Assembly (NCBI GenBank): GCA_964525175.1
Contig: CAZGFB010000001.1
Span: 1-34,662 of the forward strand
DNA length: 34,662 nucleotides
Source: an uncultured Candidatus Saccharibacteria bacterium
GTDB lineage: Bacteria > Patescibacteriota > Minisyncoccia > Phycocordibacterales > CAIZIN01
Reading direction: 5' to 3'
Positions 1 through 34,162 of the stretch are shown here, piece by piece. Below the pieces are notes generated by a model that was given only the letters and a program-made list of their open reading frames with translations, was not told the DNA's origin and made no database searches. The stretch's first letter is position 1; each line of letters opens with the position of its first letter. The position numbers were made by a program, and so were the translations under genes.

Positions 1-82
1 TACACTTTTCGCTTTTTGAATACAAAACGCTCAAAGTCTTGCGCTTGGGTCCCATCCCCAAGCTCACCTTCGCGGGAATGAC
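1..82. repeat. Partial copy (cut by window edge) of long-loop hairpin repeat 'element A'
   Basis: Aligns with 32139..32219, differing at about 5 positions by eye. Ends in CGCGGGAATGAC (reverse complement of the GTCATTCC repeat terminus). Contains inner hairpin CTTGGG-TCCCATC-CCCAAG (44..62). Confidence 0.85.
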
Positions 83-177
83 AGCAGGGAAGTGGTTATT
101 TGGGGATGATATAACCCTAGCTAAATACCCCTAAATATTGTCTTAAATAGCGCAATATTAAATTTTACATAAAAGTA

Positions 178-3893: not shown

Positions 3894-3918
3894 ATTCATA
3901 ATTCTTAATTCATAATTC
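3894..3918. repeat. Single arm of the AT-rich ATTCATAATTCTTAATTC repeat family
   Basis: ATTCATAATTCTTAATTCATAATTC lies immediately upstream of the lexA ATG. The same motif forms inverted-repeat pairs at 19252..19337, 20780..20887 and 31066..31144. Confidence 0.7.
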
Positions 3919-3926
3919 TACTCATC

Positions 3927-7961: not shown

Positions 7962-7962
7962 A

Positions 7963-8083
7963 GAATTATGAATCGACACAAAATAAGGAGTGGAGCGACT
8001 ATATTTTGTGTCGTCTTCGCGAATGCGGGGATCCAGGTCGATTCTGATTTTTCAGACTGGATTCCGGCCTTCGCCGGAATGAC
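7963..8083. repeat. Composite hairpin repeat (AT-rich motif + H hairpin + two inverted short units)
   Basis: GAATTATGAAT; H hairpin CGACACAAAATA-N16-TATTTTGTGTCG (7974..8013); unit GTCGTCTTCGCGAATGCGGGGATCCAGGTC (8010..8039); inverted unit CTGGATTCCGGCCTTCGCCGGAATGAC (8057..8083). Confidence 0.9.
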
Positions 8084-9657: not shown

Positions 9658-9780
9658 ATTTTTAATTCCACCTTTTTAATCGTTGCTTTTTTAAATTTAT
9701 GTGTTATACTTAAGCAATCAGTTTTCGGAGAGATTCGACCTCTAAAAAATCTGTTTTAAATACATTCCAATCGTCTTTGT

Positions 9781-12213: not shown

Positions 12214-12915
12214 ATGAACAGAGCCTTTGATTTTTCGATTGATGAATTTTATCACATCTATAGCCGGGGTGTTGATAAAAGAATTATTTTTCTCGAAACT
12301 TGTGATAAAGATAGGTTTGTAAAATTACTATACCTTTGTAATGGAGACAAACCAACTGTTTTTAAATCAATCCAAGGGGAGACCTTGGATAAAATTGATG
12401 TGGGTAAAAAGATAGTTTCTATAGGTGCATATTGCTTGATGGATAATCATTTTCATATTCTACTTAAGGAAATTGAGGAGGGTGGTATCAGTAAATTCAT
12501 GATGAGACTTCTAACAGCTTATTCAATGTATTTTAATAAAAAAAATAAAAGGACAGGCTCTTTGTTTGAAAGTGAATTTAAAGCAAAACATCTTGATACT
12601 GACGAATATTTAAAATATATTCTCTCATATATACATTTAAATCCGATAAAGATGATCCAACCTAATTGGAAAGAAGATGGTATTTTTGATAAAACTAAAG
12701 CAAAATTATTTTTAGATAAGTATAATTATTCTAGCTATTCTGATTACTTAGGCGCAGAAAGGGAAGAGGGGTTAATATTAGATAAAAAAGGATTACCTGA
12801 ATATTTTGCTGAATTTAAGGTTTTTGAGGATTTTATAGATGAATGGCTGTCTTTTATTCCTGACTCAGAAATCCAAGGTCTCCCCTTGGAAATTCCAAGG
12901 GGAGACCTTGGATAG
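12214..12915 (+). CDS. REP-associated tyrosine transposase (RAYT; IS200/IS605 Y1 family)
   Basis: YHIYSRGVDKRIIF, HUH motif in AYCLMDNHFHILL, TGSLFESEFKAKHL and catalytic-Tyr motif YILSYIHLNPIK. The last ~15 codons are translated REP sequence. Confidence 0.8.
   Translation: MNRAFDFSIDEFYHIYSRGVDKRIIFLETCDKDRFVKLLYLCNGDKPTVFKSIQGETLDKIDVGKKIVSIGAYCLMDNHFHILLKEIEEGGISKFMMRLLTAYSMYFNKKNKRTGSLFESEFKAKHLDTDEYLKYILSYIHLNPIKMIQPNWKEDGIFDKTKAKLFLDKYNYSSYSDYLGAEREEGLILDKKGLPEYFAEFKVFEDFIDEWLSFIPDSEIQGLPLEIPRGDLG
12371..12389. repeat. Single REP hairpin inside the RAYT coding sequence
   Basis: TCCAAGGGGAGACCTTGGA, encoding part of SIQGETLDK, within the loop preceding the HUH motif. Confidence 0.85.
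12872..12912. repeat. REP doublet (right flank of RAYT)
   Basis: TCCAAGGTCTCCCCTTGGA-AAT-TCCAAGGGGAGACCTTGGA, same orientation as the left doublet. Confidence 0.9.
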
Positions 12916-13360
12916 AGTACAAATTAAATCTTTAGATAGTTCTTTGGTAATTGGATCTCTAGGTAGTCCTTCAGACAGTCTTAATGTTATTGGAGACGTT
13001 GCTTTTGACGTGAAGGCTCTCACAGATTCAGCGACCACCTTAGATTCCTTTAGTCTTCCTGTAACTATCACATATCAATATTTAAACGAAGATATTTCGG
13101 GATTTAATGAATCAACTTTGTGGATGTATCACTATCATGGCGGAGCTTGGGTTGCTCTTGATGATTGTCAAATAAGCACCAGCACAAAAACGATTTCATG
13201 TACTGCTCCAAATTTTTCAATCTTTTCGTTATTTGCAGAAAGAACTCAAGAATCAACACCGACACCACCAACACCATCAATATCGACTCCTTCTAGATCT
13301 CAAGGAACTTCTGTTCAAACCAGAGTTAAGAACTTAATTTCTATGGGAAATACTAAATCA

Positions 13361-13657
13361 GCAGATGATTTAAAGAAACAATATTCGTATCTATTTCCAA
13401 ATGAAAATCAAATAGACACAAAAGCAAAAGAGACTTCACTTTCCCCAGCGTTTAATCGAGATCTTAAATTTGGTATGACAGGAGCGGATGTTAAGAAACT
13501 TCAACAATATTTAAACAATAATGGATATGTCGTTGCTAAAACAGGAGCTGGATCTAAAGGAAAAGAGACGACAACATTTGGACCTGCAACACGCTCAGCT
13601 TTAATTAAATTTCAAAAGGCAAACAAAATTACACCAGCAATCGGATATTTTGGTCCA
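13361..13657 (+). repeat. 297-nt near-identical direct repeat (copy 1), PG-binding domain coding
   Basis: Aligns without gaps to 17625..17921 with about 5 mismatches by eye. Weaker similarity extends upstream to about 13295 / 17559. Confidence 0.9.
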
Positions 13658-13837
13658 GTGACAAGAGCGTTTGTGGGGAAGTAATATTATTCCAGATTTA
13701 CTTCATTATCTTTTGAAACAAAAAGTGATGCAATGAAAAGAGAATGCACAATTAAGAAACTTAAGAGGAGAGAAAAATTAAGATTATTTAAGTAGTGGCA
13801 TTATTTGTGTATTATTTTTGGTATATCGGTAAGGTTC

Positions 13838-13886: not shown

Positions 13887-16800
13887 ATGAATGAAAAAAC
13901 CTATATCAGCCAAAAATCTGTTCAATCTTCTAATCTAGGATACGAGAGAGAAAATAGCTCCCGTTCAAAATTTAAATTATCTTTAGTAAAAACATTTGTA
14001 ATCTTTTTTGTGTTCCTTTTATTTTTTGTAGTTCGAGTAGAAAAAATTCACGCCGCGCAAATAACAGTTTATGCTACGGCAAATGGTGTAAAATGGATGG
14101 GTACTAATGCTGGTTGGAATACAAATCCAGATGGTGTGAGTGGAACTTTTTATAGTAATCCACAAAACAATTCAACTGATACGTTTATTGTTGATCTTAA
14201 TGGAAAATCTGGAATATCTATTGATACAGACATTGTTGTAGATAAAATACAAGATTCTTCAGCTACTGCAAGCGTTTCTCTTAATGCGCCAAGAACTATT
14301 TCTGTTTTAAATGGTGGTATTTACTATTCGGGTGCTAATACAGGGGGACTTATTAGTTCAAGTTATAATTTGACAGTTCTTGGTACTGTCACGAGCGCAG
14401 TTGGTGGTAAGCGTGTGATTATTACAAGTGGGACCGCATCGTTGACAATTAATGCTGGTGTTGGAAATACGGCAGTTCTCAATCAAGGAACGAGCTATGT
14501 AATTAATCATGCTGGTAGTGGCCAAATTACAGTTATTGGAAAAGTTGTTGGTTCAACAACACTTGCTGCCATTTACGTTACTACCGCATCCAATCAGCTT
14601 TATTACAATCCAGGATATGATGTTTTTAGTGATGGAGGCGCTTCTGCTGGTGGCCGTTCTTTACAAAATACTAGTGGCACAATTGTTGCAGTTGGAAATA
14701 TATCAGGTACATCTGCGAACGGGTCAAGCATAGAAATGATTCGAAATGATGGTGGAACCTTTGAATTAATTGGAAATATAGCAATTACAGGCTCAGCAGT
14801 TCGTGGTATTTGGAACCGCACAGGAGCTGTCGCACACGTGTATGGAAATGTTGATGTGTCAGGCAGTACCGGCGCCTCTTATGGTGTTTGGAATCAATCA
14901 GTCACTACAAGCAACACAATTACTGGTAACCTAAGCAATCCAAGTGGCTCACCAACAGCTGTCGCAGCTTTTTCTAGTGCTGGAATGGTAACAATATATG
15001 GAACAAAAACTGGAAGTGGAACTGTGAACTCAGCAACTTATACTACGATGGCAACGACTTATGTTTCAGTTTCCCCGGCATCATTACCTGCCGGAGCAAC
15101 TGGATATCTCGACACTAGTATTACTGGAGTAGGGACTACTTGGAACGGAAGTGAAACCCCAACAATAAATAATAGTGTAAGTAGCATTACTGCTGTATCA
15201 TCTGGTGAATGGACTACTACAGATGGCACACATGCCACCTTGCCTTTGCAAAATAGTGCAACAAGTAGCTTTGGTGCATTTAGTATAACTATAGGTACAG
15301 CTACTTCTGGTCCACTTGCTGTTTTTTCACCCTCACATATTTTGAGTCAAACAACCGGAGCGACAAGCAATTCCTATAACTTAACAATTACAGGAATAAA
15401 TACTCTTTGGGCGATGGATATTGCAAAAGGAAATCATACAGCTTCAAATTTATTCTCTGCCTCTACTGGAGGGACAATAAGCAATGTCCTAGTATCAAAT
15501 GATAATACAGTTACTTTAACATTAGCTACAGATGCAACTCAGCGTGTAATAACTATTACAGATAATAGTACAAATCAAACAAGTGCTTTTGATACAAATA
15601 ATATTTTAACGTACGATCTTAGTCCAACCGGAGGGAATGTAAATAATTATATTATGATCGAGGGAGGTATGAGATGGGATGGTGGTCGTTGGATCAGCAC
15701 TGCGCTTACTAGTGGTGCAGGAACTGCATTGGGAGCAGTACGCTTTGTTGGAAAGATAAATAAAATAGATGGCTATATTTCTCAGACTGGTAGTGCTGGA
15801 GCTGGTAATTTGGTTATTTTAAATATTGATGGTGAAAATGGGCCCACCTATTCTGTTCCTTATGTAGTTGGTGGGGCATTCCCAAATGCATGGCTTACAA
15901 TGTTTTCTGGATTAGATGACACAGCCACACATACATATATGTTAATTTGGCCAAACGGAGAAGTTGTGGGTAACCCAACTATTGGAAAAATTCGCACGAC
16001 AGGTGGTACAGGAATCAGCACTACAGCTCTTGTTCCACGGCCTGTGCTAGCGGTTTACGGTGATTCAATTACTCAAGGTGGAGCATACGAAAGTTCGCCA
16101 CATAACTCAACACTTTATTATGCTTATTTGTTAGCAAAAAAACTCAATTATCAAGTCGTTAACTTGGGAATTAGTGGAAGTACAGTTAGCTCACTGACTC
16201 ATGGAGGTCTTAATCCAACAACAAAAAATGGTGTAAGCAGAACAGCTGATATAACTAGCCTTAACCCAAAAGCAAGTATAGTATTAATTTTATATGGTAC
16301 CAATGATGTTACCTTTAACGCTAACCAAGGAGGAACACCCACAGAGGCCAATTTTCGAGCGGACTATGCTAGCATGCTCGCTGGTATTCGTGCGGGAAAC
16401 CCAAATGCATTAATTATTTCAGAGAGAATTTTGATGACGTCGCGAGTGGATGAAGCGACTAGAAATACATGGAGCCAAACAGATATTGCAGCAGCTGTAT
16501 CAGCACAATCAGATCCAAAGATTTTATATATGCATGGTGGGTGGGATAATTATCAAGACACCACAGGTAGTGATGGAGTGCACCCTCTTCCAAGTAAAAA
16601 CCAAGATATAGCGGATGGGATGTATTCTGACATTATCTCTGCAATTTCGACAACTGATTCAATTAAAGTTGCTACAACTACATTGACCAGCAGAGGTGGT
16701 ACATCTGCAACAATTACTTCTGCGGGTGGTATTCATGGTACGGCACCATACACATATCAATGGCTGCGTAGTGCAACGAGTAGCTGGTCTGGATTTCAAG

Positions 16801-17957
16801 TTGATGGAGCTACTGCAACAACATTAAATGACACAGGTTTAAATCCTTTGTCGACATACTATTACACACTTCAAACGACAGACAGCAACGGATTTTCAGC
16901 ACTTAGTAGTCCTGTTGAGGTTGGTCCTGCTTCAAACGACGCTACTCTTTCTGATTTAGTTATAAGTCAAGGAACTCTAAGTCCGGTATTTTCTTCAAGT
17001 ACAACTTCATACACCGTTGATGTTTTAAATGACGTCACAAGTTTGACTGTTACTCCAACTGCAAATCAGGCAAATGCAACAATCACAGTGAATGGTGAGG
17101 CCGTTAATAGTGGTGAAACATCAAGCCTAATAACATTAAATGTTGGTGACAACACTGTTTTGACGGTAACACTTGCTCAGGATGAGTCAACAACCAGAAC
17201 ATATACAATAACTGTAACAAGAGGGGCTGTAATAGTTATTCCACCAACATTAACCGTTCAAGACGCTTCATTGGTTGCAACGAGTTCCGCTGTCTTTAAT
17301 GGAACTATCACAGTTGATGGATATGCCTCTTCAACTATTGTTGGTTTTAATTATGGAACAACATTAGCATATGGTAGTACAGCTTCAACTACTGGAACAT
17401 TTGGTACAGAAACTTTCTCTAAAACAGTTACAGACCTGCTTCCAAATACTCTCTATCACTTTCAGGCTTTTGCAGAAAATAGTGCAGGGGTCGGAACATC
17501 AAGTGATGCTACAACTACCACCTCAGCACTTCCTGTATCTCCGGTACAAAGCACAACCAGATCCCAGGGTAGCTCAGTACAAAGCAGGCTTAAAAACCTA
17601 ATTTATATGGGCAAAACCCAAGCGGCAGATGATTTAAAGAAACAATATTCCTATCTATTTCCAAATGAAAATCAAATAGACACAAAAGCAAAAGAGACTT
17701 CACCTTCCCCAGCGTTTACTCGAGATCTTAAATTTGGTATGACAGGAGCGGATGTTAAGAAACTTCAACAATATTTAAACAATAATGGATATGTCGTTGC
17801 TAAAACAGGAGCTGGATCTAAAGGAAAAGAGACGACAACATTTGGACCTGCAACACGCTCAGCTTTAATTAAATTTCAAAAAGCAAACAAAATTACTCCA
17901 GCAATCGGATATTTTGGTCCAAAAACACGAGGTGTGGTGGAGAAATCTGCTTTGTAA
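13887..17957 (+). CDS. Large secreted/cell-surface multidomain protein with SGNH (GDSL) hydrolase and C-terminal peptidoglycan-binding domain
   Basis: Signal/anchor segment (VKTFVIFFVFLLFFVVRVEKIHA). About 650 aa Gly/Thr/Ser/Asn-rich repetitive region (beta-helix-like). SGNH blocks GDSITQGG (GDS at 16059..16067), GISGST, YGTNDV and DGVHPLP. FN3-like segments, a cadherin-like/Big segment (ATLSDLVISQGTLSPVFSSSTTSYTVDV) and a PG_binding_1-like C-terminus. Confidence 0.85.
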   Translation: MNEKTYISQKSVQSSNLGYERENSSRSKFKLSLVKTFVIFFVFLLFFVVRVEKIHAAQITVYATANGVKWMGTNAGWNTNPDGVSGTFYSNPQNNSTDTFIVDLNGKSGISIDTDIVVDKIQDSSATASVSLNAPRTISVLNGGIYYSGANTGGLISSSYNLTVLGTVTSAVGGKRVIITSGTASLTINAGVGNTAVLNQGTSYVINHAGSGQITVIGKVVGSTTLAAIYVTTASNQLYYNPGYDVFSDGGASAGGRSLQNTSGTIVAVGNISGTSANGSSIEMIRNDGGTFELIGNIAITGSAVRGIWNRTGAVAHVYGNVDVSGSTGASYGVWNQSVTTSNTITGNLSNPSGSPTAVAAFSSAGMVTIYGTKTGSGTVNSATYTTMATTYVSVSPASLPAGATGYLDTSITGVGTTWNGSETPTINNSVSSITAVSSGEWTTTDGTHATLPLQNSATSSFGAFSITIGTATSGPLAVFSPSHILSQTTGATSNSYNLTITGINTLWAMDIAKGNHTASNLFSASTGGTISNVLVSNDNTVTLTLATDATQRVITITDNSTNQTSAFDTNNILTYDLSPTGGNVNNYIMIEGGMRWDGGRWISTALTSGAGTALGAVRFVGKINKIDGYISQTGSAGAGNLVILNIDGENGPTYSVPYVVGGAFPNAWLTMFSGLDDTATHTYMLIWPNGEVVGNPTIGKIRTTGGTGISTTALVPRPVLAVYGDSITQGGAYESSPHNSTLYYAYLLAKKLNYQVVNLGISGSTVSSLTHGGLNPTTKNGVSRTADITSLNPKASIVLILYGTNDVTFNANQGGTPTEANFRADYASMLAGIRAGNPNALIISERILMTSRVDEATRNTWSQTDIAAAVSAQSDPKILYMHGGWDNYQDTTGSDGVHPLPSKNQDIADGMYSDIISAISTTDSIKVATTTLTSRGGTSATITSAGGIHGTAPYTYQWLRSATSSWSGFQVDGATATTLNDTGLNPLSTYYYTLQTTDSNGFSALSSPVEVGPASNDATLSDLVISQGTLSPVFSSSTTSYTVDVLNDVTSLTVTPTANQANATITVNGEAVNSGETSSLITLNVGDNTVLTVTLAQDESTTRTYTITVTRGAVIVIPPTLTVQDASLVATSSAVFNGTITVDGYASSTIVGFNYGTTLAYGSTASTTGTFGTETFSKTVTDLLPNTLYHFQAFAENSAGVGTSSDATTTTSALPVSPVQSTTRSQGSSVQSRLKNLIYMGKTQAADDLKKQYSYLFPNENQIDTKAKETSPSPAFTRDLKFGMTGADVKKLQQYLNNNGYVVAKTGAGSKGKETTTFGPATRSALIKFQKANKITPAIGYFGPKTRGVVEKSAL
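17625..17921 (+). repeat. 297-nt near-identical direct repeat (copy 2)
   Basis: See 13361..13657. Confidence 0.9.
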
Positions 17958-19237: not shown

Positions 19238-19251
19238 AGTAGCATAATGGG

Positions 19252-19337
19252 GAAGAATTATGAATTATGAATTAGGAATTATGAATGGGGAGTAAGAAAG
19301 ATGTTCGAATTTATTCTTAATTCATAATTCCTAATTC
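19252..19337. repeat. AT-rich inverted repeat (GAATTATGAATTAGGAATTATGAAT ... ATTCATAATTCCTAATTC)
   Basis: Left arm 19252..19286 and right arm 19313..19337, with about 18 bp pairing and a ~33-nt loop. Member of the family also at 20780..20887 and 31066..31144. Confidence 0.8.
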
Positions 19338-19387
19338 TATTCTAAAATTTCTTCCAAATTTTGGAATTTAGTGTATACTGTCTTCAT

Positions 19388-20229: not shown

Positions 20230-20793
20230 ATGCTTCTCAATCCAAAAATTCAAAAAGCAATTTATGTTGCTACGCATCAACATCGCCATCAAGAAAGAAA
20301 AGTGAGTGGAATGCCATATATTGTACATCCTTTTTCTGTTGCCTGGCTTTTGTCAGAGCAAACAAAAGATGAAGATATTATTGTAGCGGGCTTGCTTCAT
20401 GACGTGCTCGAGGATACAGACGGCTATGATTACAATGATATTGTGAGAGATTTTGGAGAAAGAGTTGCCGAAATTGTTTCCGAGGTAACAGAATTTAAAG
20501 ATTTGCCTTGGCATGAAAGAAAAGAGAAGTATATTAAAGTCTTTGAAAATTCATCACAAGAATCTTTGATGGTTGCAACAGCGGATAAGATTCATAATTT
20601 ATCTTCACTTTATGAGGAGATTTTGGAGACAGGAGAGAATCCCTTTGGTACTAAGTTTAAATCATATGATGAGTCAAAATGGTTTTATGAATCTGTATAC
20701 GAGGTGATGGAAAGAAGACTAGGGAATAAAATCCTTTTGGCAGAATTTAAGGAGATGTTGGAGTTGGTTTTTAAGGGTAGAATTAAGAATTAG
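20230..20793 (+). CDS. HD-domain protein, RelA/SpoT-type (p)ppGpp-hydrolase-like (small alarmone hydrolase-like)
   Basis: YIVHPFSVAWLL...GLLHDVLEDT...ATADKIHNL pattern of the HD_4/SpoT hydrolase domain. The ATG is 1 nt after the cupin gene stop. Confidence 0.8.
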   Translation: MLLNPKIQKAIYVATHQHRHQERKVSGMPYIVHPFSVAWLLSEQTKDEDIIVAGLLHDVLEDTDGYDYNDIVRDFGERVAEIVSEVTEFKDLPWHERKEKYIKVFENSSQESLMVATADKIHNLSSLYEEILETGENPFGTKFKSYDESKWFYESVYEVMERRLGNKILLAEFKEMLELVFKGRIKN

Positions 20794-20887
20794 GAATTAT
20801 GAATTATGGAAATACCGGGGCCGAATGGTCCGGCATTTTATAGTATTCTTAATCTATTCTTAATTCCTAATTCATAATTCTTAATTC
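20780..20887. repeat. AT-rich inverted repeat of the GAATTAAGAATTAGGAATTATGAAT family
   Basis: Left arm 20780..20809 overlaps the HD-gene stop codon; right arm 20845..20887. The loop contains a small GC hairpin (GCCG-AATGGTC-CGGC). Confidence 0.8.
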
Positions 20888-20952
20888 TGTTACGATTGAA
20901 TTTATGCTGTTTTTCGTGTATTATGAAATTATTATAAGTAACTTATAAAAAC

Positions 20953-26737: not shown

Positions 26738-26809
26738 TGGGACTTATTCCTGAATCTTAAATCATAAATCTTAAATCATCAAAAATTATTTTGCTTCGCT
26801 TCTAATTTT

Positions 26810-29120: not shown

Positions 29121-29152
29121 CAAAAATGCTATTGTTTACGATAGCATTTTTG
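29121..29152. promoter_or_regulatory. Palindrome S1 (CAAAAATGCTAT-TGTTTACG-ATAGCATTTTTG); also a plausible mltG terminator
   Basis: 12-bp arms with a T-run after the hairpin. The core TGCTATTGTTTACGATAGCA recurs at 29216, 29703 (inverted) and 29748 (inverted). Confidence 0.6.
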
Positions 29153-29215
29153 ATATTTTATAAAATTTATATATACAAATATATAAATATAATATATATA
29201 TATTACTACCTAGGA

Positions 29216-29235
29216 TGCTATTGTTTACAATAGCA
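29216..29235. promoter_or_regulatory. Palindrome S2 (TGCTATTG-TTTA-CAATAGCA), candidate operator of the TrpR-like gene
   Basis: Perfect 8-bp arms. It overlaps the -35 position of the TATAAT at 29253..29258, which sits 6 nt before ATG 29265. Confidence 0.55.
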
Positions 29236-29264
29236 AATATTTTTTATTGGTTTATAATTATTCT

Positions 29265-29684
29265 ATGAAGAATCTCACTAATATTAGGATTGACAAAAAT
29301 GTTTATAATAAAATATATGGTCAATTTGTTTCCTCGTTGATTTGTCTGGATAATAAGGAAAAGAGTATATTATTTGTGAATGAATTATTTACTGAATCCG
29401 AAAAAATGATGCTAGCAAAAAGATTGGCTATCATAATAATGCTTAAAGAAGGATTATCAAACCGCGTAATCAGTAATTCTCTCAATGTTAGTCCCGCCAC
29501 TGTTACAAGAGCTTCTGTCGCTCTAAAAAGGAATTCATATAACATTATTGATGATTTCTTTGGGGATAAAGAAACAAGAAGAAAGATAATCAAAAAGATT
29601 CTGATTTTAAGACACGAACTTTTACCAACTCGGCCTAGAGGGGCCAGTTTTGAATACTTACGAAATAATAAGTATCCAAAATAG
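29265..29684 (+). CDS. TrpR-like (YerC/YecD family) HTH regulator
   Basis: LFTESEKMMLAKRLAIIIMLKEGLSNRVISNSLNVSPATVTRASVALK matches the Trp-repressor-like helix pattern. ATG 29265 is preferred over TTG 29247. Confidence 0.7.
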   Translation: MKNLTNIRIDKNVYNKIYGQFVSSLICLDNKEKSILFVNELFTESEKMMLAKRLAIIIMLKEGLSNRVISNSLNVSPATVTRASVALKRNSYNIIDDFFGDKETRRKIIKKILILRHELLPTRPRGASFEYLRNNKYPK

Positions 29685-29702
29685 AATCTGTGAATATAAA
29701 TA

Positions 29703-29724
29703 ATGCTATCGTAAACAATAGCAT
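29703..29724. promoter_or_regulatory. Palindrome S3 (exact reverse complement of the S1 core)
   Basis: ATGCTATCGTAAACAATAGCAT, 19 nt after the TrpR-like stop codon. Confidence 0.55.
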
Positions 29725-29747
29725 ATTAGAATTCATCATCTGGTGAA

Positions 29748-29767
29748 TGCTATCGTAAACAATAGCA
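29748..29767. promoter_or_regulatory. Palindrome S4
   Basis: TGCTATCGTAAACAATAGCA. Confidence 0.55.
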
Positions 29768-29890
29768 AATTTTAGAATGGAGATAAGAGAAATAAAGGGG
29801 CCTAATTAAAGTGTTTTGGATTTAGGACAAAATAACAAATAATGAACCGCTTTAGCTTTTGGTTAAATTTATGTTATAACTATTGGATTA

Positions 29891-31066
29891 ATGCAGAATT
29901 TAAAAGGTAAAAAGATATATGTTGGTCTTTCTGGTGGAGTGGATAGCTCTGTGGCTGCGGCTCTTTTGCTGGAAGCTGGCGCTCTCGTGACGGGAGTCTT
30001 TATAAAAGGCTGGTATCCGGAATTTTTGAAATGTGACTGGAAGGAAGAGAGGCGAGATGCGATGCGTGTGGCTGCACATTTAGGAATACCATTTTTGACT
30101 TGTGATGCGGAAGAGGCATATAAAAAGAATGTGATTGATTATATGATTTCTGAATATAAAGCAGGGCGAACTCCTAACCCAGATGTGATGTGTAATAAGT
30201 ATGTAAAATTTGGAACATTCTTTGATTTTGCTATGGAGCGTGGTGCGGATTTTGTGGCGACAGGGCACTACGCTCGCTCCGCTCGAATTAAAAATGAAAA
30301 ATTGACACAAAACAACGAGCGAAGCGACTATGTTTTGTGTCATCCTCGCGAATGCGGGGATCCAGGTTCGGATTCGGATGCTCAGCTATTGAAAGGGGAG
30401 GATGGGAATAAGGATCAGAGTTATTTCTTGTGGGCAGTATCAAAAGATCAATTAGAAAAAACTCTTTTCCCGATTGGAGAAATTGATAAATCTGAAGTTA
30501 GAAAAATTGCTAGAAAATATAAACTTTTTACTGGTGAAAAAAAAGACAGCCAAGGTTTATGTTTTCTTGGTAAGGTTGATTTGGATGAATTTTTATCTCA
30601 TTATATTCCAAAAAATAAAGGAGATGTCTTAAATAAAGACGGTGAAGTAATTGGCCATCATGACGGTGTGCATCTATACACATTGGGAGAAAGACATGGA
30701 TTTACTGTCACAAAAAAAGGCATAGAAGATAAGCCGAACTATATTGTTGCAAAGGACATAGAAAAAAACACACTTACCGTCTCTGATTCAATTATCGAGA
30801 TTCAAAAAACCTCCTGCTCTGGTGTTATTCTTCGTGAGGTGAATTGGATCATAAAACCGGAGTTAAATAAAGAATATATGTGTCGAGTTAGATATCGACA
30901 ACCACTTTTTCGATGCTCGGTTCATCGTGAGGCTAAGCCTCACGATGTAGAAGGTTGTATTGTGAATTTTGTGAACAAACAAGATTTTGTATCAACTGGC
31001 CAATCTCTGGTTTTGTATGACGGGGATATTTGTTTGGGAGGAGGAATAATTGAGGGTAGAATATAG
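29891..31066 (+). CDS. mnmA: tRNA-specific 2-thiouridylase MnmA with in-frame repeat insertion
   Basis: PP-loop VGLSGGVDSSVAA, EYKAGRTPNPDVMCNKYVKF, ATGHYAR, KDQSYFL, KKDSQGLCFLG and C-terminal GQSLVLYDGDICLGGGII. Confidence 0.93.
   Translation: MQNLKGKKIYVGLSGGVDSSVAAALLLEAGALVTGVFIKGWYPEFLKCDWKEERRDAMRVAAHLGIPFLTCDAEEAYKKNVIDYMISEYKAGRTPNPDVMCNKYVKFGTFFDFAMERGADFVATGHYARSARIKNEKLTQNNERSDYVLCHPRECGDPGSDSDAQLLKGEDGNKDQSYFLWAVSKDQLEKTLFPIGEIDKSEVRKIARKYKLFTGEKKDSQGLCFLGKVDLDEFLSHYIPKNKGDVLNKDGEVIGHHDGVHLYTLGERHGFTVTKKGIEDKPNYIVAKDIEKNTLTVSDSIIEIQKTSCSGVILREVNWIIKPELNKEYMCRVRYRQPLFRCSVHREAKPHDVEGCIVNFVNKQDFVSTGQSLVLYDGDICLGGGIIEGRI
30304..30367. repeat. H hairpin + short hairpin unit inside the mnmA coding sequence
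   Basis: GACACAAAACA-N16-TGTTTTGTGTC (30304..30341) and GTCATCCTCGCGAATGCGGGGATCCAGGT (30339..30367). Homologous to the intergenic composite at 7974..8039. Translated as ...TQNNERSDYVLCHPRECGDPG... Confidence 0.9.
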
Positions 31067-31144
31067 AATTATGAATTAAGAATTATGAATTCATTAAGAG
31101 GCGTGCTTCTGTTTTGTCCATTCTTAATTCCTAATTCCTAATTC
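31066..31144. repeat. AT-rich inverted repeat of the GAATTATGAATTAAGAATT family
   Basis: Left arm 31066..31094 begins at the last base of the mnmA stop codon. Right arm 31120..31144 ends 6 nt before TATAAT at 31151..31156. Confidence 0.8.
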
Positions 31145-31162
31145 TTGAAGTATAATACTTCT

Positions 31163-32002
31163 ATGACCCCAGAAACATACATCAAAAAATCGTCAGGCGT
31201 ACTAGAATTGTTTAACAAAGCTAAGCTCATTGACTCCCTAGAAAAAGCGGGAGCCTCAATGTTTGTTGCAGAAGATGTCGCAAACAAAATTGAAGAAAAA
31301 TTAAAAGAAGGAATGCCTACCTCAATGATTTATTCTCAATCATTCAAACTTCTCCGTAAAAAGGAAAGTCGACCAGCTATTCGATATTCACTTCGCCGAT
31401 CGATCGCAGATTTAGGTCCAACAGGATTTCCGTTTGAAGATTTTATTGGGGAAATATTTAGAGAGAAAGGTTTTAATATTATAAATGACTTAATGGTGCA
31501 AGGAAAATGTATTGAGCATGAAATAGATATTGTTGCACATAATGAAGACCATTTAATAATGACAGAAATTAAATTTCATAATCAGCTCATGCTAAAGTCT
31601 GATGTGAAAGTTGCTTTATATATCAAGGCTCGTTTTGATGACTTAGAAGGTGTTGATTTTGTAATTGATGGAAAGAAAAGAAAGATGACACAAGGTTTAC
31701 TTTTGACTAATACAAAATTTACTGAACATGCTATTAAATTTGGTGCTTGTGCGGGTGTAAATATGATCGGTTGGAACTACCCTGCAAAAGGTAATTTGCA
31801 CGATCTTATTGAAGAGACAGGTCTTCATCCACTAACATGCCTCACTACACTTTCAGGAAGAGAGAAAAAAGTGCTTTTGGAAAAAGAGATTGTTACATGT
31901 AAAGCTCTTAAATTGAAGAAAGAAGTTTTGATTGAAATGCAATTGTCGGAGGGTAGAGTAGCTAGGGTGTTGAAGGAGATAGAAGAAGTCGCATCGTTTT
32001 AA
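31163..32002 (+). CDS. ATP-cone domain + PD-(D/E)xK (Mrr-like restriction endonuclease fold) protein
   Basis: The N-terminus IKKSSGVLELFNKAKLIDSLEKAGASMFVAEDVANKIEEKLKEGMPTSMIY resembles an ATP-cone. The central FEDFIGEIFREKGF...HEIDIVAH...IMTEIKFH gives a D...E-x-K nuclease motif. ATG 31163 preferred. Confidence 0.7.
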   Translation: MTPETYIKKSSGVLELFNKAKLIDSLEKAGASMFVAEDVANKIEEKLKEGMPTSMIYSQSFKLLRKKESRPAIRYSLRRSIADLGPTGFPFEDFIGEIFREKGFNIINDLMVQGKCIEHEIDIVAHNEDHLIMTEIKFHNQLMLKSDVKVALYIKARFDDLEGVDFVIDGKKRKMTQGLLLTNTKFTEHAIKFGACAGVNMIGWNYPAKGNLHDLIEETGLHPLTCLTTLSGREKKVLLEKEIVTCKALKLKKEVLIEMQLSEGRVARVLKEIEEVASF

Positions 32003-32036
32003 ATGTTCTAAATGTTCAAGTTGTTCTAGGTGTTCT
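32001..32036 (+). repeat. Four tandem 9-nt repeats (ARRTGTTCW)
   Basis: AAATGTTCT AAATGTTCA AGTTGTTCT AGGTGTTCT, starting inside the stop codon of the nuclease gene. Confidence 0.8.
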
Positions 32037-32062
32037 AAATGAGAAAGAATTCGATCCTTTCT

Positions 32063-32264
32063 GTCATCCTCGGGTAATCCCGGGGATCCAAGTTTGAATT
32101 CAGAATTTTCAGACTGGATTCCTGCCTTACAGGCACTGTACACTTTTCGCTTTTTGAATACAAAATGCTCAAAGTCTTGCGCTTGGGTCCCGCCCCAAGC
32201 TCACCTCCGCAGGAATGACAAGCGGGCTCAGACTTGGATCCCCGCTGAGTACAGCGAGGATGAC
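32063..32264. repeat. Full-length composite hairpin element (short unit + long-loop unit containing element A + inverted short unit)
   Basis: Left end GTCATCCTCGGGTAATCCCGGGGATCCAAGT (32063..32093). Right end is the inverted unit ACTTGGATCCCCGCTGAGTACAGCGAGGATGAC (32232..32264). The interior CTGGATTCCTGC...GCAGGAATGAC encloses the ~81-nt element A (32139..32219). Confidence 0.9.
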
Positions 32265-32315: not shown

Positions 32316-32417
32316 TCCCGTTAGAAGTTTACCATAGGTACAGCTTGGATCTTCGGGATAATTTAGTTAAATAAATGAATTAGTGTAAATATATTAATAA
32401 GTAAACTTCTAACGGGA
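32316..32417 (+). promoter_or_regulatory. alaS leader: 17-bp perfect long-range inverted repeat ending at the A of the start codon
   Basis: TCCCGTTAGAAGTTTAC (32316..32332) pairs with GTAAACTTCTAACGGGA (32401..32417) around a 68-nt loop. Extended -10-like TGgTATAAA at 32296..32304 lies just upstream. Confidence 0.6.
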
Positions 32418-34162
32418 TGAACTCAAACGAAATTCGACAAAAATTCTTAAGTTTTTTTAAAGAGCGGGGGCACGCGGTTATTCCTTCCGCCTCGCTAATT
32501 CCAGAAAACGATCCTTCTGTACTCTTCACCACAGCTGGTATGCACCCTCTGGTGCCATATTTACTCGGAGAGAAGCATCCGTTAGGGGCAAGGCTCACAG
32601 ACGTCCAAAAGTGCGTCAGGACAGGGGATATTGATGAAGTGGGTGATTATGCACACCACACTTTTTTTGAAATGCTCGGTAACTGGTCCTTGGGTGACTA
32701 TTTTAAAAAAGAGGTGATAGCTTGGAGTTATGAATTCTTAACATCTCCAGACTATCTTGGTTTAGACAAAAATCGAATTGCTGTTTCAGTATTTGAAGGT
32801 GATGCAGATGCACCCTTTGATCAAGAAGCTTATGATGCATGGAAAAATTTAGGAATTAGTGAAAAAAGAATTGCAAAACTTCCAAAGAAAAATAACTGGT
32901 GGGGTCCTGCTGGAGAAGCTGGTCCTTGTGGTCCTGACACCGAAATGTTTTATTGGGTAGGGAGCCCTGAGGAAGTTCCAGAAAGTTTCAACGATGACAA
33001 TGATCTTTGGCTTGAAATTTGGAATGACGTTTTCATGCAATATGATAAATCAAAGGAAGGAAAATTTTCTGAATTGCAACAAAAAAATATCGATACCGGA
33101 ATGGGTCTTGAAAGAACCCTTGCTGTTGTAAATGGTTTGGATGATAACTATAAAACTGAATTATTCTGGCCGATCATAGAAAAGATTGAAAGTCTTTCTG
33201 GTAAAAAATATGATGATGATAAAAAAGCAATGCGAATTATTGCTGATCACATAAAAGCTTCTGTGTTTATTTTGGGTGACAATATGGGTATTGCTCCCTC
33301 AAACTCTGGGCAAGGCTATGTTTTGCGCAGGCTCATAAGACGAGCTGTTCGATATGGCAAACAATTAGGAATGGCTTCTTTTACAGGAGATGTTGCTAAA
33401 GTTGTGATTGAAATTTATAAGGATGTCTATCCGGAACTTATAAAGAATCAGGATTTTGTTTTGAATAATCTTTCTCAAGAAGAAGAGAAATTTGAAAAGA
33501 CTTTGGAAAAAGGTTTGAAAGAATTTGAAAAAGGAATTAGTCCTTTTGTGCTTTTCACTACTTATGGTTTTCCATTTGAAATGACTAAGGAATTGGCGAT
33601 GGAAAAAGGGGTTGAGATAAATGAAGAAGAATTTAATAATGAATTCAAAAAACATCAGGAGCTATCCCAAACTTCATCCGCAGGAATGTTTAAGGGTGGA
33701 CTTTCGGATTCTGGAGAGGAAACAAAAAGACTCCATACCGCTACACATCTTTTGCGACAAGCACTAGAAAATGTTCTTGGCGAAACCATTGTTCAAAAGG
33801 GAAGTAATATCAACGCTGAAAGACTTCGTTTTGACTTTGCATTTTCTCGAAAACTGACAGATGAAGAAAAACAAAAAGCTGAAGATTTAGTAAATGAAAA
33901 AATTAAAGAAGCTTTGCCAGTTCATCGAGTCGAGCTTCCAAAGGAGGAAGCTATAAAGACTGGTGCTGTACATTCATTTAGCGACAAGTATGGAGATGTT
34001 GTTTCTGTCTATTATATTGGGGATTCTATTGAAACAGCTTTCTCAAAAGAATTCTGTGGCGGTCCGCATGTTTCAAATACAAGCGAACTAGGGAAATTTA
34101 AAATTGCAAAAGAAGAAGCTGTATCTGCGGGAGTACGAAGAATTAAGGCTGTGTTGGAATAA
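32417..34162 (+). CDS. alaS: Alanine--tRNA ligase, compact form (no C-Ala domain)
   Basis: FLSFFKERGHAVIPSASLIP, FTTAGMHPLVPYLLG, HHTFFEMLGNWSLGDYFK, DTGMGLERT and the editing-site motifs HTATHLL and CGGPHV. It is only 581 aa and ends right after the editing core. Confidence 0.92.
   Translation: MNSNEIRQKFLSFFKERGHAVIPSASLIPENDPSVLFTTAGMHPLVPYLLGEKHPLGARLTDVQKCVRTGDIDEVGDYAHHTFFEMLGNWSLGDYFKKEVIAWSYEFLTSPDYLGLDKNRIAVSVFEGDADAPFDQEAYDAWKNLGISEKRIAKLPKKNNWWGPAGEAGPCGPDTEMFYWVGSPEEVPESFNDDNDLWLEIWNDVFMQYDKSKEGKFSELQQKNIDTGMGLERTLAVVNGLDDNYKTELFWPIIEKIESLSGKKYDDDKKAMRIIADHIKASVFILGDNMGIAPSNSGQGYVLRRLIRRAVRYGKQLGMASFTGDVAKVVIEIYKDVYPELIKNQDFVLNNLSQEEEKFEKTLEKGLKEFEKGISPFVLFTTYGFPFEMTKELAMEKGVEINEEEFNNEFKKHQELSQTSSAGMFKGGLSDSGEETKRLHTATHLLRQALENVLGETIVQKGSNINAERLRFDFAFSRKLTDEEKQKAEDLVNEKIKEALPVHRVELPKEEAIKTGAVHSFSDKYGDVVSVYYIGDSIETAFSKEFCGGPHVSNTSELGKFKIAKEEAVSAGVRRIKAVLE

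What the first reader, a model, noticed from the sequence alone, without database searches (positions are those of the whole stretch)
31066..32264. ATP-cone fused to a PD-(D/E)xK nuclease, on an islet bounded by repeats (candidate nucleotide-sensing defence gene)
The 31163..32002 product combines an N-terminal segment resembling the ATP-cone (the ATP/dATP-sensing module of ribonucleotide reductases and NrdR) with an Mrr-like restriction-endonuclease core (FEDFIGEIF...EIDIVAH...TEIKF). No methyltransferase or partner gene is adjacent. The gene sits between two housekeeping genes (mnmA, alaS). It is flanked by an AT-rich inverted repeat (31066..31144) and by a tandem 9-mer array plus the largest composite repeat (32001..32264), which looks like an insertion islet. 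An allosteric nucleotide sensor wired to a nuclease would fit a stand-alone abortive-infection or defence effector responding to dNTP-pool perturbation. This is inference; to my knowledge the architecture is functionally uncharacterised.
Basis: inference. Interest (0 to 1): 0.6.

Follow-up and report, generated by a model that had tools for sequence, protein, structure and literature searches.

The report
ATP-cone nuclease: old resident gene
The gene really does join an ATP/dATP-sensing domain to an intact DNA- or RNA-cutting enzyme. However, it is an old, stably inherited gene of this tiny-genome bacterial lineage, surrounded by the genome's ordinary junk repeats, and not a recently inserted anti-phage island.

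Summary
Observation confirmed. Window 31163..32002 (+) encodes a 279-aa protein with three parts: an N-terminal ATP-cone, a PD-(D/E)xK (Mrr_cat) core with invariant E92/D122/E135/K137, and an AF1548-like C-terminal domain. The flanking hairpin, 9-mer array and composite repeat are all present.

The "insertion islet / stand-alone defence gene" reading is not supported.
- All three flanking repeats belong to families dispersed on dozens of contigs of this 0.77-Mb genome. Relatives lack them at this site, where the mnmA-to-gene gap is 0-47 nt.
- The gene is single-copy and found in 31 of 41 genomes of the order.
- It sits directly or one small gene after mnmA in 19 of the 22 loci of the order examined, inside a conserved leuS...alaS block.
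- Its tree follows taxonomy.
- Its divergence tracks mnmA (r = 0.79), and its dN/dS is 0.05-0.10.
- Neighbours of distant homologues are housekeeping genes. No phage record carries it.

In Bacteroidota, on a Criblamydia plasmid and in one MAG of doubtful label, it heads an operon with a beta-CASP nuclease, a thymidine/AMP-phosphorylase-family enzyme and a PRPP-synthetase-like enzyme.

The best reading is an adenine-nucleotide-gated housekeeping nuclease for nucleic-acid turnover, salvage or repair. The biochemistry is untested. This scan has already flagged the family in about 250 other genomes, and the follow-up notes shown reached the same conclusion.

The parts
31163..32002 (+). Gene X: 279-aa ATP-cone / PD-(D/E)xK (AF1548-type) nuclease, stop codon included
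   Evidence: ORF list. Pfam. PDB 1Y88 E = 1.6e-26. More than 2000 homologues, about 280 aa in the rows listed. N-terminus MTPETYIKK matches orthologues.
31178..31408 (+). ATP-cone domain (aa 6-82)
   Evidence: Pfam PF03477. A profile of the N-terminal domain hits E. coli NrdR (E = 0.014, aa 6-82 aligned to 50-135) and an anaerobic RNR cone. Superposes on the NrdR cone at 1.8 A rmsd over 81 residues. The NrdR inner-site residues V51/K53/E59/F61/K65/L66/I108 align to I7/K9/E15/F17/K21/L22/I56. The last six are invariant or nearly invariant; position 7 is hydrophobic.
31424..31759 (+). PD-(D/E)xK nuclease core (aa 88-199) with catalytic E92 (31436-31438), D122 (31526-31528), E135 (31565-31567) and K137 (31571-31573)
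   Evidence: Mrr_cat is above its cut-off. E92, D122, E135 and K137 are invariant in 32 sequences down to 48% identity. D122/E135/K137 align to the predicted catalytic D38/E51/K53 of AF1548.
31775..31990 (+). C-terminal helical domain (AF1548-like_C), a probable nucleic-acid-binding module
   Evidence: Weak PF22357 hit at aa 237-276, listed for some homologues. Aligned to AF1548 residues up to 195. The model shows five helices at 212-277. The nucleic-acid-binding role is inference.
31058..31145 (.). Hairpin with heptad-repeat arms (GAATTAN)n / (NTAATTC)n between mnmA and X; one copy of a dispersed intergenic repeat
   Evidence: Full copies also lie at 19250-19345 and 20775-20890, with half copies at 3894-3920 and 26746-26785. 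There are 84 arm matches on 39 contigs. It is absent at this site in relatives. No T-run terminator was found.
31996..32041 (.). Tandem 9-mer array (GTTCTAAAT x 5.1) overlapping the stop codon; also a dispersed element
   Evidence: TRF. Copies on 5 other contigs, for example C6 at 94.7% over 38 nt. A similar array lies downstream of X in the congener G003.
32042..32264 (.). Composite of palindromic GTCATYC...GRATCCA units and an 82-nt block; a dispersed REP/MITE-like family
   Evidence: 32139-32220 is about 95% identical to window 1-83. Units lie at 9778, 22495, 25892, 32060, 34210 and 34252. The block matches 45 contigs and there are 179 units on 55 contigs.
29891..31066 (+). mnmA (tRNA 2-thiouridylase), the conserved upstream neighbour
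   Evidence: Pfam tRNA_Me_trans and its M and C domains. Directly or one small gene upstream of X in 19 of the 22 loci of the order.
32417..34162 (+). alaS (short, 581 aa), the downstream neighbour
   Evidence: ORF and homology clusters. In other families of the order, 1-6 further genes lie between X and alaS: MGMT-like, Cas4-like PD-(D/E)xK, PCMT, UDG, pepF.

Best explanation
Gene X is a long-resident, vertically inherited chromosomal gene of this Patescibacteria (Paceibacteria-type) order. It encodes a three-module enzyme. An NrdR-like ATP-cone binds adenine nucleotides (ATP/dATP). It is fused to a catalytically intact AF1548-type PD-(D/E)xK endonuclease and a small helical C-terminal domain that probably holds the nucleic acid.

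The most likely mechanism follows what ATP-cones do in RNRs and NrdR. Nucleotide occupancy of the cone would change the oligomeric state or domain packing, and so switch the nuclease on or off. That would tie cleavage of DNA (or RNA) to the cell's ATP/dATP status.

The most likely role is housekeeping nucleic-acid turnover that feeds nucleotide salvage, with DNA repair as the close alternative. It is not phage defence.

Shown here: the architecture, the conserved active-site and nucleotide-site residues, vertical inheritance, conserved synteny, purifying selection, and the dispersed nature of the flanking repeats. Inferred: nucleotide binding, gating by oligomerisation, the substrate, and the salvage role.
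For: Architecture and residues.

Family: more than 2000 hits in one search and 402 clusters at 50% identity with E < 1e-30; the rows listed are almost all about 265-310 aa and match over nearly the whole query.

Distribution: single copy in the genome. Present in 31 of 41 genomes of the order, with identity falling with taxonomic distance: 84-88% for three congeners and 75% for a fourth, 50-59% within the family, mostly 42-51% within the order.

Synteny: the block leuS-sigma4/HARE-unk420-mltG-mnmA-X-...-alaS is conserved, and X follows mnmA directly or after one small gene in 19 of 22 loci of the order. mnmA-X gaps are 0-47 nt in several relatives.

Tree: the order, family f1 and the genus are each one well-supported clade.

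Rates: pairwise identity of X tracks mnmA (r = 0.79, Mantel p = 5e-4). Mean identity is 47.6%, between mnmA at 51.4% and mltG at 40.5%. dN/dS is 0.05-0.10 against 0.10-0.15 for mnmA.

Repeats are genome-wide.

No defence signal: the neighbours of 20 distant homologues are mostly housekeeping genes (enolase, PGK, SHMT, aaRS, LGT), with no recurrent PADLOC family. Phage hits 0; plasmid hits 2 of 72,556.

Salvage lead: in four loci X is followed directly by the full set of a beta-CASP/RMMBL nuclease, a thymidine/AMP-phosphorylase-family protein and a PRPP-synthetase-like protein. These are Cyclobacterium lianum, a MAG labelled Citrobacter freundii, and the Pontibacter actiniarum and Criblamydia sequanensis plasmids. 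A Sediminibacterium MAG (contig ends after the beta-CASP gene) and a Flammeovirgaceae MAG (beta-CASP and phosphorylase genes about 2.7 kb downstream; no PRPP-synthetase match, the phosphorylase match running to the end of the fetched stretch) show part of it. Single cases have a LOG/SLOG nucleotide hydrolase overlapping X, an Endo IV-like gene, PilB, PilC or NrdD/NrdG nearby.

The order has no bona fide NrdR. X and the RNR are therefore the recurrent ATP-cone proteins there, and the only two matches in this genome.
Against: No biochemical datum exists for any member; AF1548 is only a structural-genomics structure.

The salvage operon is not seen in the window's order (one distant Patescibacteria locus has a beta-CASP gene about 3 kb from X). 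The own genome's beta-CASP homologue is unlinked (contig C72). It shows no co-occurrence with X: it is present in 37 of 41 relatives, including all X-less ones, and absent in 4 X-positive ones.

Conserved synteny within the order may simply reflect genome collinearity rather than functional linkage.

At phylum level the gene is patchy, in 25 of 401 sampled genomes, so it is dispensable.

The equivalent of NrdR Tyr131, the outer-site ATP/dATP discriminator, is not clearly conserved in the alignment. dATP discrimination is therefore uncertain.

The ATP-cone HMM score of the window protein itself is borderline.
Confidence: 0.55

Rival explanations
1. One reading: a stand-alone abortive-infection or defence nuclease on an inserted islet. 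It would sense dNTP-pool perturbation during phage infection through the ATP-cone and then degrade DNA.
For: The logic of a sensor domain fused to a PD-(D/E)xK effector is that of CARF nucleases. Foldseek lists Can2, Cdn1 and VC1899 at E = 1e-4 to 1e-3, and PADLOC CARF_PDDEXK matches the nuclease part at E = 2.7e-5. Mrr_cat is a restriction-enzyme family. Distribution across the phylum is patchy, 25 of 401. X-less genomes of the order have mnmA directly next to alaS. One distant locus (L049) has Fic and PrimPol-helicase neighbours.
Against: The position is fixed and the tree follows taxonomy across the order. All four congeners whose mnmA region is assembled carry it. dN/dS is lower than for mnmA. 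There is no integrase or transposase, and GC is within the local range. The flanking repeats are genome-wide and are absent at the site in relatives. No defence family recurs among 109 neighbours. There are no phage copies. The PADLOC and Foldseek CARF-nuclease matches cover only the nuclease half.
Confidence: 0.1
2. A DNA-repair or recombination endonuclease, specific for a structure or a lesion, whose activity is licensed by ATP/dATP. It would belong to a repair gene cluster rather than to nucleotide salvage.
For: Within the order, the genes just downstream of X are often repair-type: an MGMT-like DNA-binding (alkyltransferase-like) protein, a Cas4-like PD-(D/E)xK nuclease (PDDEXK_1) and a UDG-superfamily glycosylase. 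A Cas4-like gene lies two genes upstream of X, on the opposite strand, in another family of the same class (L042). An Endo IV-like gene lies upstream in L045. There are weak Pfam hits to Hjc and YraN.
Against: X is not a substitute Holliday-junction resolvase: RuvC is present in 40 of 41 relatives whether or not X is, and RecU in none. The repair genes are missing beside X in the window's own genus and in most distant loci. The linkage could be collinearity alone. The operon outside Patescibacteria is catabolic or salvage, not repair.
Confidence: 0.25
3. A non-catalytic, NrdR-like regulator. The ATP-cone would control DNA binding by the nuclease-fold and C-terminal domains, repressing RNR or other genes in a lineage that lacks NrdR.
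For: No NrdR over the cut-off was found in 41 genomes of the order, while each has an RNR with an ATP-cone. The cone is most similar to that of NrdR. One X-less genome (G020) has a distant NrdR-like ORF. A database source names one homologue as an NrdR-type regulator.
Against: The full catalytic set E92/D122/E135/K137 is invariant over the family. A mere DNA-binding scaffold would not be expected to keep it. There is no Zn-ribbon. Matches to the NrdR model cover only the cone and lie far below the cut-off. No repeated operator-like site is specific to this gene or to RNR promoters; this was examined only in the window.
Confidence: 0.05

Closest known systems
AF1548 of Archaeoglobus fulgidus (PDB 1Y88; Pfam Mrr_cat PF04471 + AF1548-like_C PF22357)
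   Same: The nuclease core and C-terminal domain are homologous: phmmer E = 1.6e-26 over aa 94-276 and Foldseek E = 1.9e-13, TM 0.74, 33% identity. The catalytic D/E/K predicted for AF1548 (D38, E51, K53; PMC1821046) align with D122, E135, K137.
   Different: AF1548 (199 residues) has no ATP-cone. It is itself a structural-genomics protein with no tested function.
NrdR and the ATP-cones of ribonucleotide reductases (Pfam PF03477)
   Same: Same fold: 1.8 A over 81 residues against E. coli NrdR. The inner-site adenine-nucleotide residues are conserved. By analogy, the same regulatory logic is expected, namely nucleotide-dependent oligomerisation.
   Different: The output domain is a nuclease, not a Zn-ribbon DNA binder or a reductase. 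The NrdR model is matched only over the cone and far below its cut-off. The outer-site Tyr131 equivalent is unclear.
CARF-PD-(D/E)xK effector nucleases (Can2/Card1, Cdn1, VC1899)
   Same: An N-terminal small-molecule sensor domain is fused to a PD-(D/E)xK nuclease. There are weak structural and profile matches.
   Different: The sensor is an ATP-cone, not CARF. The matches cover only the nuclease half. There is no CRISPR or cyclic-oligoadenylate context. Inheritance is housekeeping-like.
Mrr-type (Type IV) restriction endonucleases
   Same: The catalytic domain belongs to the same Pfam family, above the cut-off. No methyltransferase partner is needed.
   Different: There is no N-terminal domain that reads modified DNA. 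Synteny is conserved, inheritance is vertical, and there is no defence-island context.

Membership tests
ATP-cone (PF03477) | Profile match at or above the curated cut-off | tested here: met
   hmmscan on the protein gives 24.9 bits, just under the 25.8 cut-off. The six-frame search of the same gene gives 27.3 bits, over the cut-off. 27 of the other 30 orthologues in the order are also over it, at up to 41 bits. So this is borderline for this sequence and clear for the family.
ATP-cone (PF03477) | Beta-hairpin lid plus four-helix cone fold | tested here: met
   In the AF2 model (pLDDT about 90 in this part), 81 residues superpose on the E. coli NrdR cone at 1.8 A rmsd with 26% identity. RNR cones are also listed.
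ATP-cone (PF03477) | Conserved adenine-nucleotide binding residues (inner site) | tested here: met
   NrdR V51, K53, E59, F61, K65, L66, I108 (preprint 10.1101/2025.03.28.645925) align to I7, K9, E15, F17, K21, L22, I56. The last six are invariant or at least 90% conserved; position 7 is hydrophobic but variable.
ATP-cone (PF03477) | Binds ATP/dATP and changes oligomeric state | not testable with these tools
   Needs purified protein: ITC or filter binding, and SEC-MALS or mass photometry with and without ATP/dATP.
PD-(D/E)xK nuclease, Mrr_cat (PF04471) | Profile match above the cut-off | tested here: met
   23.2 bits against a cut-off of 21, aa 88-199.
PD-(D/E)xK nuclease, Mrr_cat (PF04471) | Catalytic E ... 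D ... (D/E)xK residues present and conserved | tested here: met
   E92, D122, E135 and K137 are invariant in 32 sequences down to 48% identity.
PD-(D/E)xK nuclease, Mrr_cat (PF04471) | Metal-dependent phosphodiesterase activity | not testable with these tools
   Needs an enzyme assay.
AF1548-like proteins (PDB 1Y88) | Homology over the nuclease core and C-terminal domain | tested here: met
   E = 1.6e-26 over aa 94-276 against residues 23-195. Foldseek TM 0.74 normalised to the target.
Type IV (Mrr-like) restriction / defence gene | DNA-modification reader domain, patchy strain-level distribution, and a defence-island or mobile context | tested here: not met
   The N-terminal domain is an ATP-cone. 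Synteny is fixed and the tree is congruent with taxonomy. No defence neighbour recurs. No phage copies.
CARF-nuclease effectors (Can2/Card1) | CARF sensor domain; link to cyclic-oligoadenylate signalling | tested here: not met
   The PADLOC hit covers only aa 87-180, aligned to profile positions 205-298, the nuclease part. No CARF hit in Pfam.
NrdR (TIGR00244) | N-terminal Zn-ribbon plus ATP-cone; score over the equivalog cut-off | tested here: not met
   X orthologues match only model positions of about 48-128, at 18-25 bits against a cut-off of 124.65. The sequence has no Cys4 ribbon.
Holliday-junction resolvase (Hjc/RecU type) | Profile match; the role is needed because other resolvases are absent | tested here: not met
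   Hjc E = 0.051, 14 bits against a cut-off of 21.1. RuvC is present in 40 of 41 relatives whether or not X is.
Genomic islet / mobile insertion | Boundary repeats specific to the element, mobility genes, composition shift, and presence/absence among close relatives | tested here: not met
   The repeats are dispersed genome-wide and absent at the site in relatives. There is no integrase or transposase. GC is 0.29-0.38, within the local range. All four congeners with the region assembled carry X; G004 lacks the whole mnmA region.

The most novel reading that the evidence does not exclude
This family is the first ATP-cone-regulated nuclease. The ATP/dATP signal that throttles ribonucleotide reductase would also gate an endonuclease, so that degradation of DNA or RNA is switched on when the adenine-nucleotide or dNTP pool runs low. 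The substrate could be imported or the cell's own. In Bacteroidota and Chlamydiota the products would pass to a beta-CASP exonuclease, a nucleotide/nucleoside phosphorylase and a PRPP-synthetase-like enzyme. In Patescibacteria, which must scavenge nucleotides, it would be a control point of salvage.
Probability: 0.3. Interest if true: 0.55.

Novelty: new member of a known kind. Interest (0 to 1): 0.3.

Why it matters
As a defence-islet claim it does not hold, so this locus is ordinary: one more orthologue of a large, catalogued family annotated as 'ATP cone domain-containing protein / restriction endonuclease'.

The family itself is still worth an experiment. It has strictly conserved catalytic and nucleotide-site residues and is kept in 0.5-1 Mb genomes, yet it has no tested function. 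It would extend ATP-cone allostery beyond ribonucleotide reduction to nucleic-acid cleavage. The operon found here in culturable Bacteroidota (Cyclobacterium lianum, Pontibacter actiniarum) offers tractable hosts for testing the salvage hypothesis.

Tried and rejected
1. Holliday-junction resolvase replacement. Rejected: RuvC is in 40 of 41 relatives independent of X, and RecU in 0 of 41.

2. Functional partnership with the beta-CASP nuclease, tested by co-occurrence in the order. No association: X+MBL+ 27, X+MBL- 4, X-MBL+ 10, X-MBL- 0.

3. NrdR substitution. NrdR is absent from the whole order, so no contrast is available. Only one X-less genome has a distant NrdR-like ORF.

4. Conserved neighbours outside the order. 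BLAST clustering of 20 loci gave no recurrent neighbour. Pfam and PADLOC scans of 109 neighbours gave only singletons.

5. The upstream hairpin as an intrinsic terminator. No T-run follows and the scan found none. A TATAAT lies 7 nt before the ATG (31151-31156), which could mean a leaderless transcript, but the -35 is poor. Left as a possibility.

6. Literature searches for ATP-cone with nuclease, endonuclease, restriction endonuclease or Patescibacteria found no description of the fusion. AF1548 is mentioned only as a predicted endonuclease.

8. One strand folding and one search_protein_families call failed on my input. The first was repeated correctly. The two Bacteroidota downstream stretches were not re-examined.


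Full report
1. WHAT IS AT THE COORDINATES

The + strand carries mnmA (29891..31066), a 279-aa ORF that I call X (ATG 31163 to stop 32002), and a short alaS (32417..34162).

- Pfam gives ATP-cone at aa 6-61 with 24.9 bits, just under the 25.8 cut-off.
- Pfam gives Mrr_cat at aa 88-199 with 23.2 bits, over the cut-off of 21, and a weak AF1548-like_C hit at the C-terminus.
- The six-frame genome search scores the same ATP-cone at 27.3 bits, over the cut-off. Orthologues reach 41 bits.
- phmmer against PDB sequences finds AF1548 (1Y88) at E = 1.6e-26 over aa 94-276.
- An AlphaFold2 model built on 32 homologues has mean pLDDT 89.3 and pTM 0.82.
- Foldseek places the C-terminal two thirds on 1Y88 (E = 1.9e-13, TM 0.74). 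It places the first 81 residues on the ATP-cone of E. coli NrdR at 1.8 A rmsd. RNR cones are also listed, as are, more weakly, CARF-nucleases such as Can2, Cdn1 and VC1899.

The flanking inverted repeat, the 9-mer array and the composite repeat are all present.

2. ARE THE FUNCTIONAL RESIDUES KEPT?

In 32 family members down to 48% identity, E92, D122, E135 and K137 are invariant. They form the canonical E...D...ExK set. D122/E135/K137 align with D38/E51/K53, predicted as catalytic in AF1548 (PMC1821046; alignment).

A profile of the N-terminal domain aligns aa 6-82 with E. coli NrdR 50-135 (E = 0.014) and with an anaerobic RNR cone. A structural preprint on E. coli NrdR (10.1101/2025.03.28.645925) names V51, K53, E59, F61, K65, L66 and I108 as lining the inner nucleotide site. 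These fall on I7, K9, E15, F17, K21, L22 and I56 of X. The last six are invariant or at least 90% conserved; position 7 is hydrophobic but varies (I/V/T).

The equivalent of Tyr131, which discriminates ATP from dATP at the outer site in NrdR, is not clearly conserved; R78 aligns there and an invariant Y75 lies nearby. ATP versus dATP discrimination is therefore open.

Both halves look functional. Whether they are can only be settled at the bench.

3. IS IT AN ISLET BOUNDED BY REPEATS? NO

- The upstream hairpin has arms made of heptads, (GAATTAN)n and their complement. Full copies lie at 19250-19345 and 20775-20890, and half copies at 3894-3920 and 26746-26785.
- In the whole 0.77-Mb assembly the arm occurs 84 times on 39 contigs.
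- The GTCATYC...GRATCCA palindromic unit occurs 179 times on 55 contigs.
- The 223-nt downstream composite matches 45 contigs, and window 1-83 is a 94-95% copy of 32139-32220.
- The 9-mer array has copies on 5 other contigs.
- In relatives the mnmA-X spacer is 0, 7, 10, 21 or 47 nt, with no repeat. Congeners carry different repeats, or none, at the two spacers.

The repeats are lineage-specific colonisers of intergenic space around an older gene. No integrase or transposase is nearby, and the GC content of the gene (0.29-0.38) lies within the local range.

4. INHERITANCE

X is single-copy. It is found in 31 of 41 genomes sampled from the order and in 25 of 34 genera. Identity is 84-88% for three congeners and 75% for a fourth, 50-59% within the family, and mostly 42-51% within the order, with one outlier at 34%. 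The one congener without it (G004, 75% complete) lacks the whole mnmA region, so that is an assembly gap.

I fetched about 12 kb around X in 22 genomes of the order.
- In 19 of them X follows mnmA, directly or after one small gene, on the same strand.
- It sits inside a conserved block: leuS, a sigma-70 region 4/HARE-HTH protein, an unknown 420-aa protein, mltG (YceG), mnmA, X, then alaS.
- Most families have 1-6 further genes between X and alaS: an MGMT-like DNA-binding protein, a Cas4-like PD-(D/E)xK nuclease, PCMT, a UDG-superfamily glycosylase, and pepF.
- X-less genomes of the order keep the same block, with mnmA abutting alaS or one of those genes.

A maximum-likelihood tree of 50 sequences recovers the order (99/92), family f1 (98/89) and the genus (98/89) as clades. 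With the fixed position, this points to ancestral presence with several losses, although neither an explicit gain/loss reconstruction nor a rooted test was done.

Pairwise identity of X tracks that of mnmA (r = 0.79, Mantel p = 5e-4). That is at least as well as mnmA tracks mltG (0.63). The mean identity of X (47.6%) lies between mnmA (51.4%) and mltG (40.5%). dN/dS among congeners is 0.05-0.10 for X and 0.10-0.15 for mnmA. dS is saturated in most pairs; the least saturated pair gives 0.08 against 0.13.

This is the behaviour of a vertically inherited housekeeping-type gene.

5. WIDER DISTRIBUTION AND CONTEXT

Across the phylum X is patchy: 25 of 401 evenly drawn genomes. Outside the order its neighbours change.

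I scanned 109 neighbours (up to three genes on each side, two ORFs with ambiguous residues left out) of 20 distant homologues.
- Pfam gave mostly housekeeping families: enolase, PGK, SHMT, aldolase, aminoacyl-tRNA synthetases and LGT.
- PADLOC gave only singleton hits, apart from two families with two members each.
- One locus (L049) does have Fic and PrimPol-helicase neighbours.
- Immediately adjacent, co-directional neighbours include single cases of a LOG/SLOG nucleotide hydrolase (overlapping X by 14 nt), an Endo IV-like protein and PilB. PilC is adjacent and NrdD/NrdG lie nearby in another locus. Unrelated genes also occur.

No phage record among 50,697 encodes a relative. Two plasmids among 72,556 do.

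Those two plasmids, from Pontibacter actiniarum and Criblamydia sequanensis, show the same tight, co-directional four-gene cluster. X comes first. Then come an MBL-fold hydrolase that Pfam resolves as a beta-CASP nuclease with the RMMBL RNA-specificity domain, a thymidine-phosphorylase-family protein of about 500 aa, and a ribose-phosphate pyrophosphokinase-like protein.

Most are Patescibacteria of the Paceibacteria type, and several are Bacteroidota. Of the 10 non-Patescibacteria loci examined:
- Four carry the full cluster: the two plasmids, Cyclobacterium lianum, and a MAG labelled Citrobacter freundii that may be mis-binned.
- Two carry part of it. In a Sediminibacterium MAG the contig ends after the beta-CASP gene. 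In a Flammeovirgaceae MAG the beta-CASP and phosphorylase genes lie about 2.7 kb downstream of X; no PRPP-synthetase match was found there, and the phosphorylase match runs to the end of the fetched stretch.

In the tree these non-Patescibacteria sequences form one clade (100/99), sister to the window's order. Taxonomy inside that clade is scrambled, which implies horizontal spread of the operon there.

The window's own genome encodes the beta-CASP homologue (33% identity over 452 aa), but unlinked, on contig C72. The ORF beside it looks like a SLOG/TIGR00725-family protein to my eye, but I did not test that. In the order the beta-CASP gene is present in 37 of 41 genomes and does not co-vary with X.

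The salvage association is therefore a lead from other phyla, not something shown for this genome.

6. MECHANISM

What follows from established knowledge: in RNRs and NrdR, ATP-cones act by nucleotide-dependent oligomerisation (summarised), and PD-(D/E)xK nucleases usually cut as dimers.

What I infer: adenine-nucleotide occupancy of the cone sets the quaternary state or domain packing of X, and so gates cleavage. The C-terminal helical domain would hold the nucleic acid.

The order lacks a bona fide NrdR, and each genome has an RNR with an ATP-cone. X and the RNR are therefore the recurrent readers of the ATP/dATP signal there, and the only two ATP-cone matches in this genome.

On the role:
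- Nucleic-acid turnover feeding nucleotide salvage fits the operon in Bacteroidota and Chlamydiota, and fits the scavenging lifestyle of Patescibacteria (the latter from general knowledge).
- A repair role fits the MGMT-like/Cas4-like/UDG neighbours within the order.
- X is not a replacement Holliday-junction resolvase.
- Defence is not excluded in principle, but nothing in distribution, context or evolutionary rate supports it.

7. COMPARISON WITH WHAT IS KNOWN; NOVELTY

The closest solved relative is AF1548, which has no cone and no tested function. The closest cone is that of NrdR. The fusion is annotated in public databases as 'ATP cone domain-containing protein' or 'restriction endonuclease'. 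I found no paper describing it.

This scan has already noted the family 261 times, in at least 250 genomes. The follow-up notes shown reached the same conclusion: real architecture, housekeeping-like inheritance, and salvage or repair rather than defence. I stated my reading before seeing those notes, and tested it independently here.

This locus is therefore a new member of a known, uncharacterised kind.

8. VERDICT

Interest is 0.3. The family merits a biochemical test, but this locus adds little beyond the synteny, tree and operon evidence gathered here.

Noticed in passing
window 30287-30367 (inside mnmA): An 81-nt copy (84% identical) of the intergenic repeat at 7958-8038 lies in frame inside mnmA. 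mnmA searches in the congener G004 hit only this translated repeat, on many contigs. Earlier notes of the scan already cover it (e1-3840926).
   Followed up: partly
window 29247-29684 with sites at 29125-29150, 29214-29239, 29702-29727, 29746-29771: A TrpR-like gene (Pfam Trp_repressor) is bracketed by four copies of a 26-nt palindromic site. Among the loci examined, the gene lies between mltG and mnmA only in the window and two of the three congeners examined at this site. It looks more like a lineage-specific insertion in this block than X does.
   Followed up: partly
window 32316-32332 / 32401-32417: A perfect 17-bp inverted repeat lies in the alaS leader, and its 3' arm ends at the A of the alaS ATG.
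   Followed up: no
window 13295-13594 and 17559-17858: A 300-nt direct repeat at 93% identity, 4.3 kb apart. One copy is in the 281-aa ORF 12839-13684 and the other near the end of the 1356-aa ORF 13887-17957. Unexplained.
   Followed up: no
window 32417-34162 and orthologues: AlaRS is only 581 aa here and 581-628 aa across the order. From memory, typical bacterial AlaRS is about 870 aa, so it presumably lacks the C-terminal domain.
   Followed up: no
L060 (Pontibacter actiniarum plasmid NZ_CP021236, 1972-6597), L061 (Criblamydia sequanensis plasmid NZ_LK031773, 5995-10602), L128, L138: A conserved operon: ATP-cone nuclease, beta-CASP/RMMBL nuclease, thymidine/AMP-phosphorylase-family protein, PRPP-synthetase-like protein. 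It is shared by Bacteroidota and a chlamydial plasmid. In Pontibacter it sits next to an IS5 transposase, and in Criblamydia among phosphoketolase, glycogen phosphorylase and acetate kinase genes.
   Followed up: partly
own genome contig C72:1301-2665 (-) and 561-1124 (-): A beta-CASP MBL nuclease (454 aa) homologous to the operon partner of X in other phyla. The 187-aa ORF that follows looks like a SLOG/TIGR00725-type protein, but it was not profiled.
   Followed up: partly
L014 (G001), mnmA-X spacer: A congener carries, at the same spot, a different long hairpin whose arms are built from another heptad (AAATCCG-like). The heptad-arm hairpin design therefore recurs with a different sequence in a sister species.
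   Followed up: no
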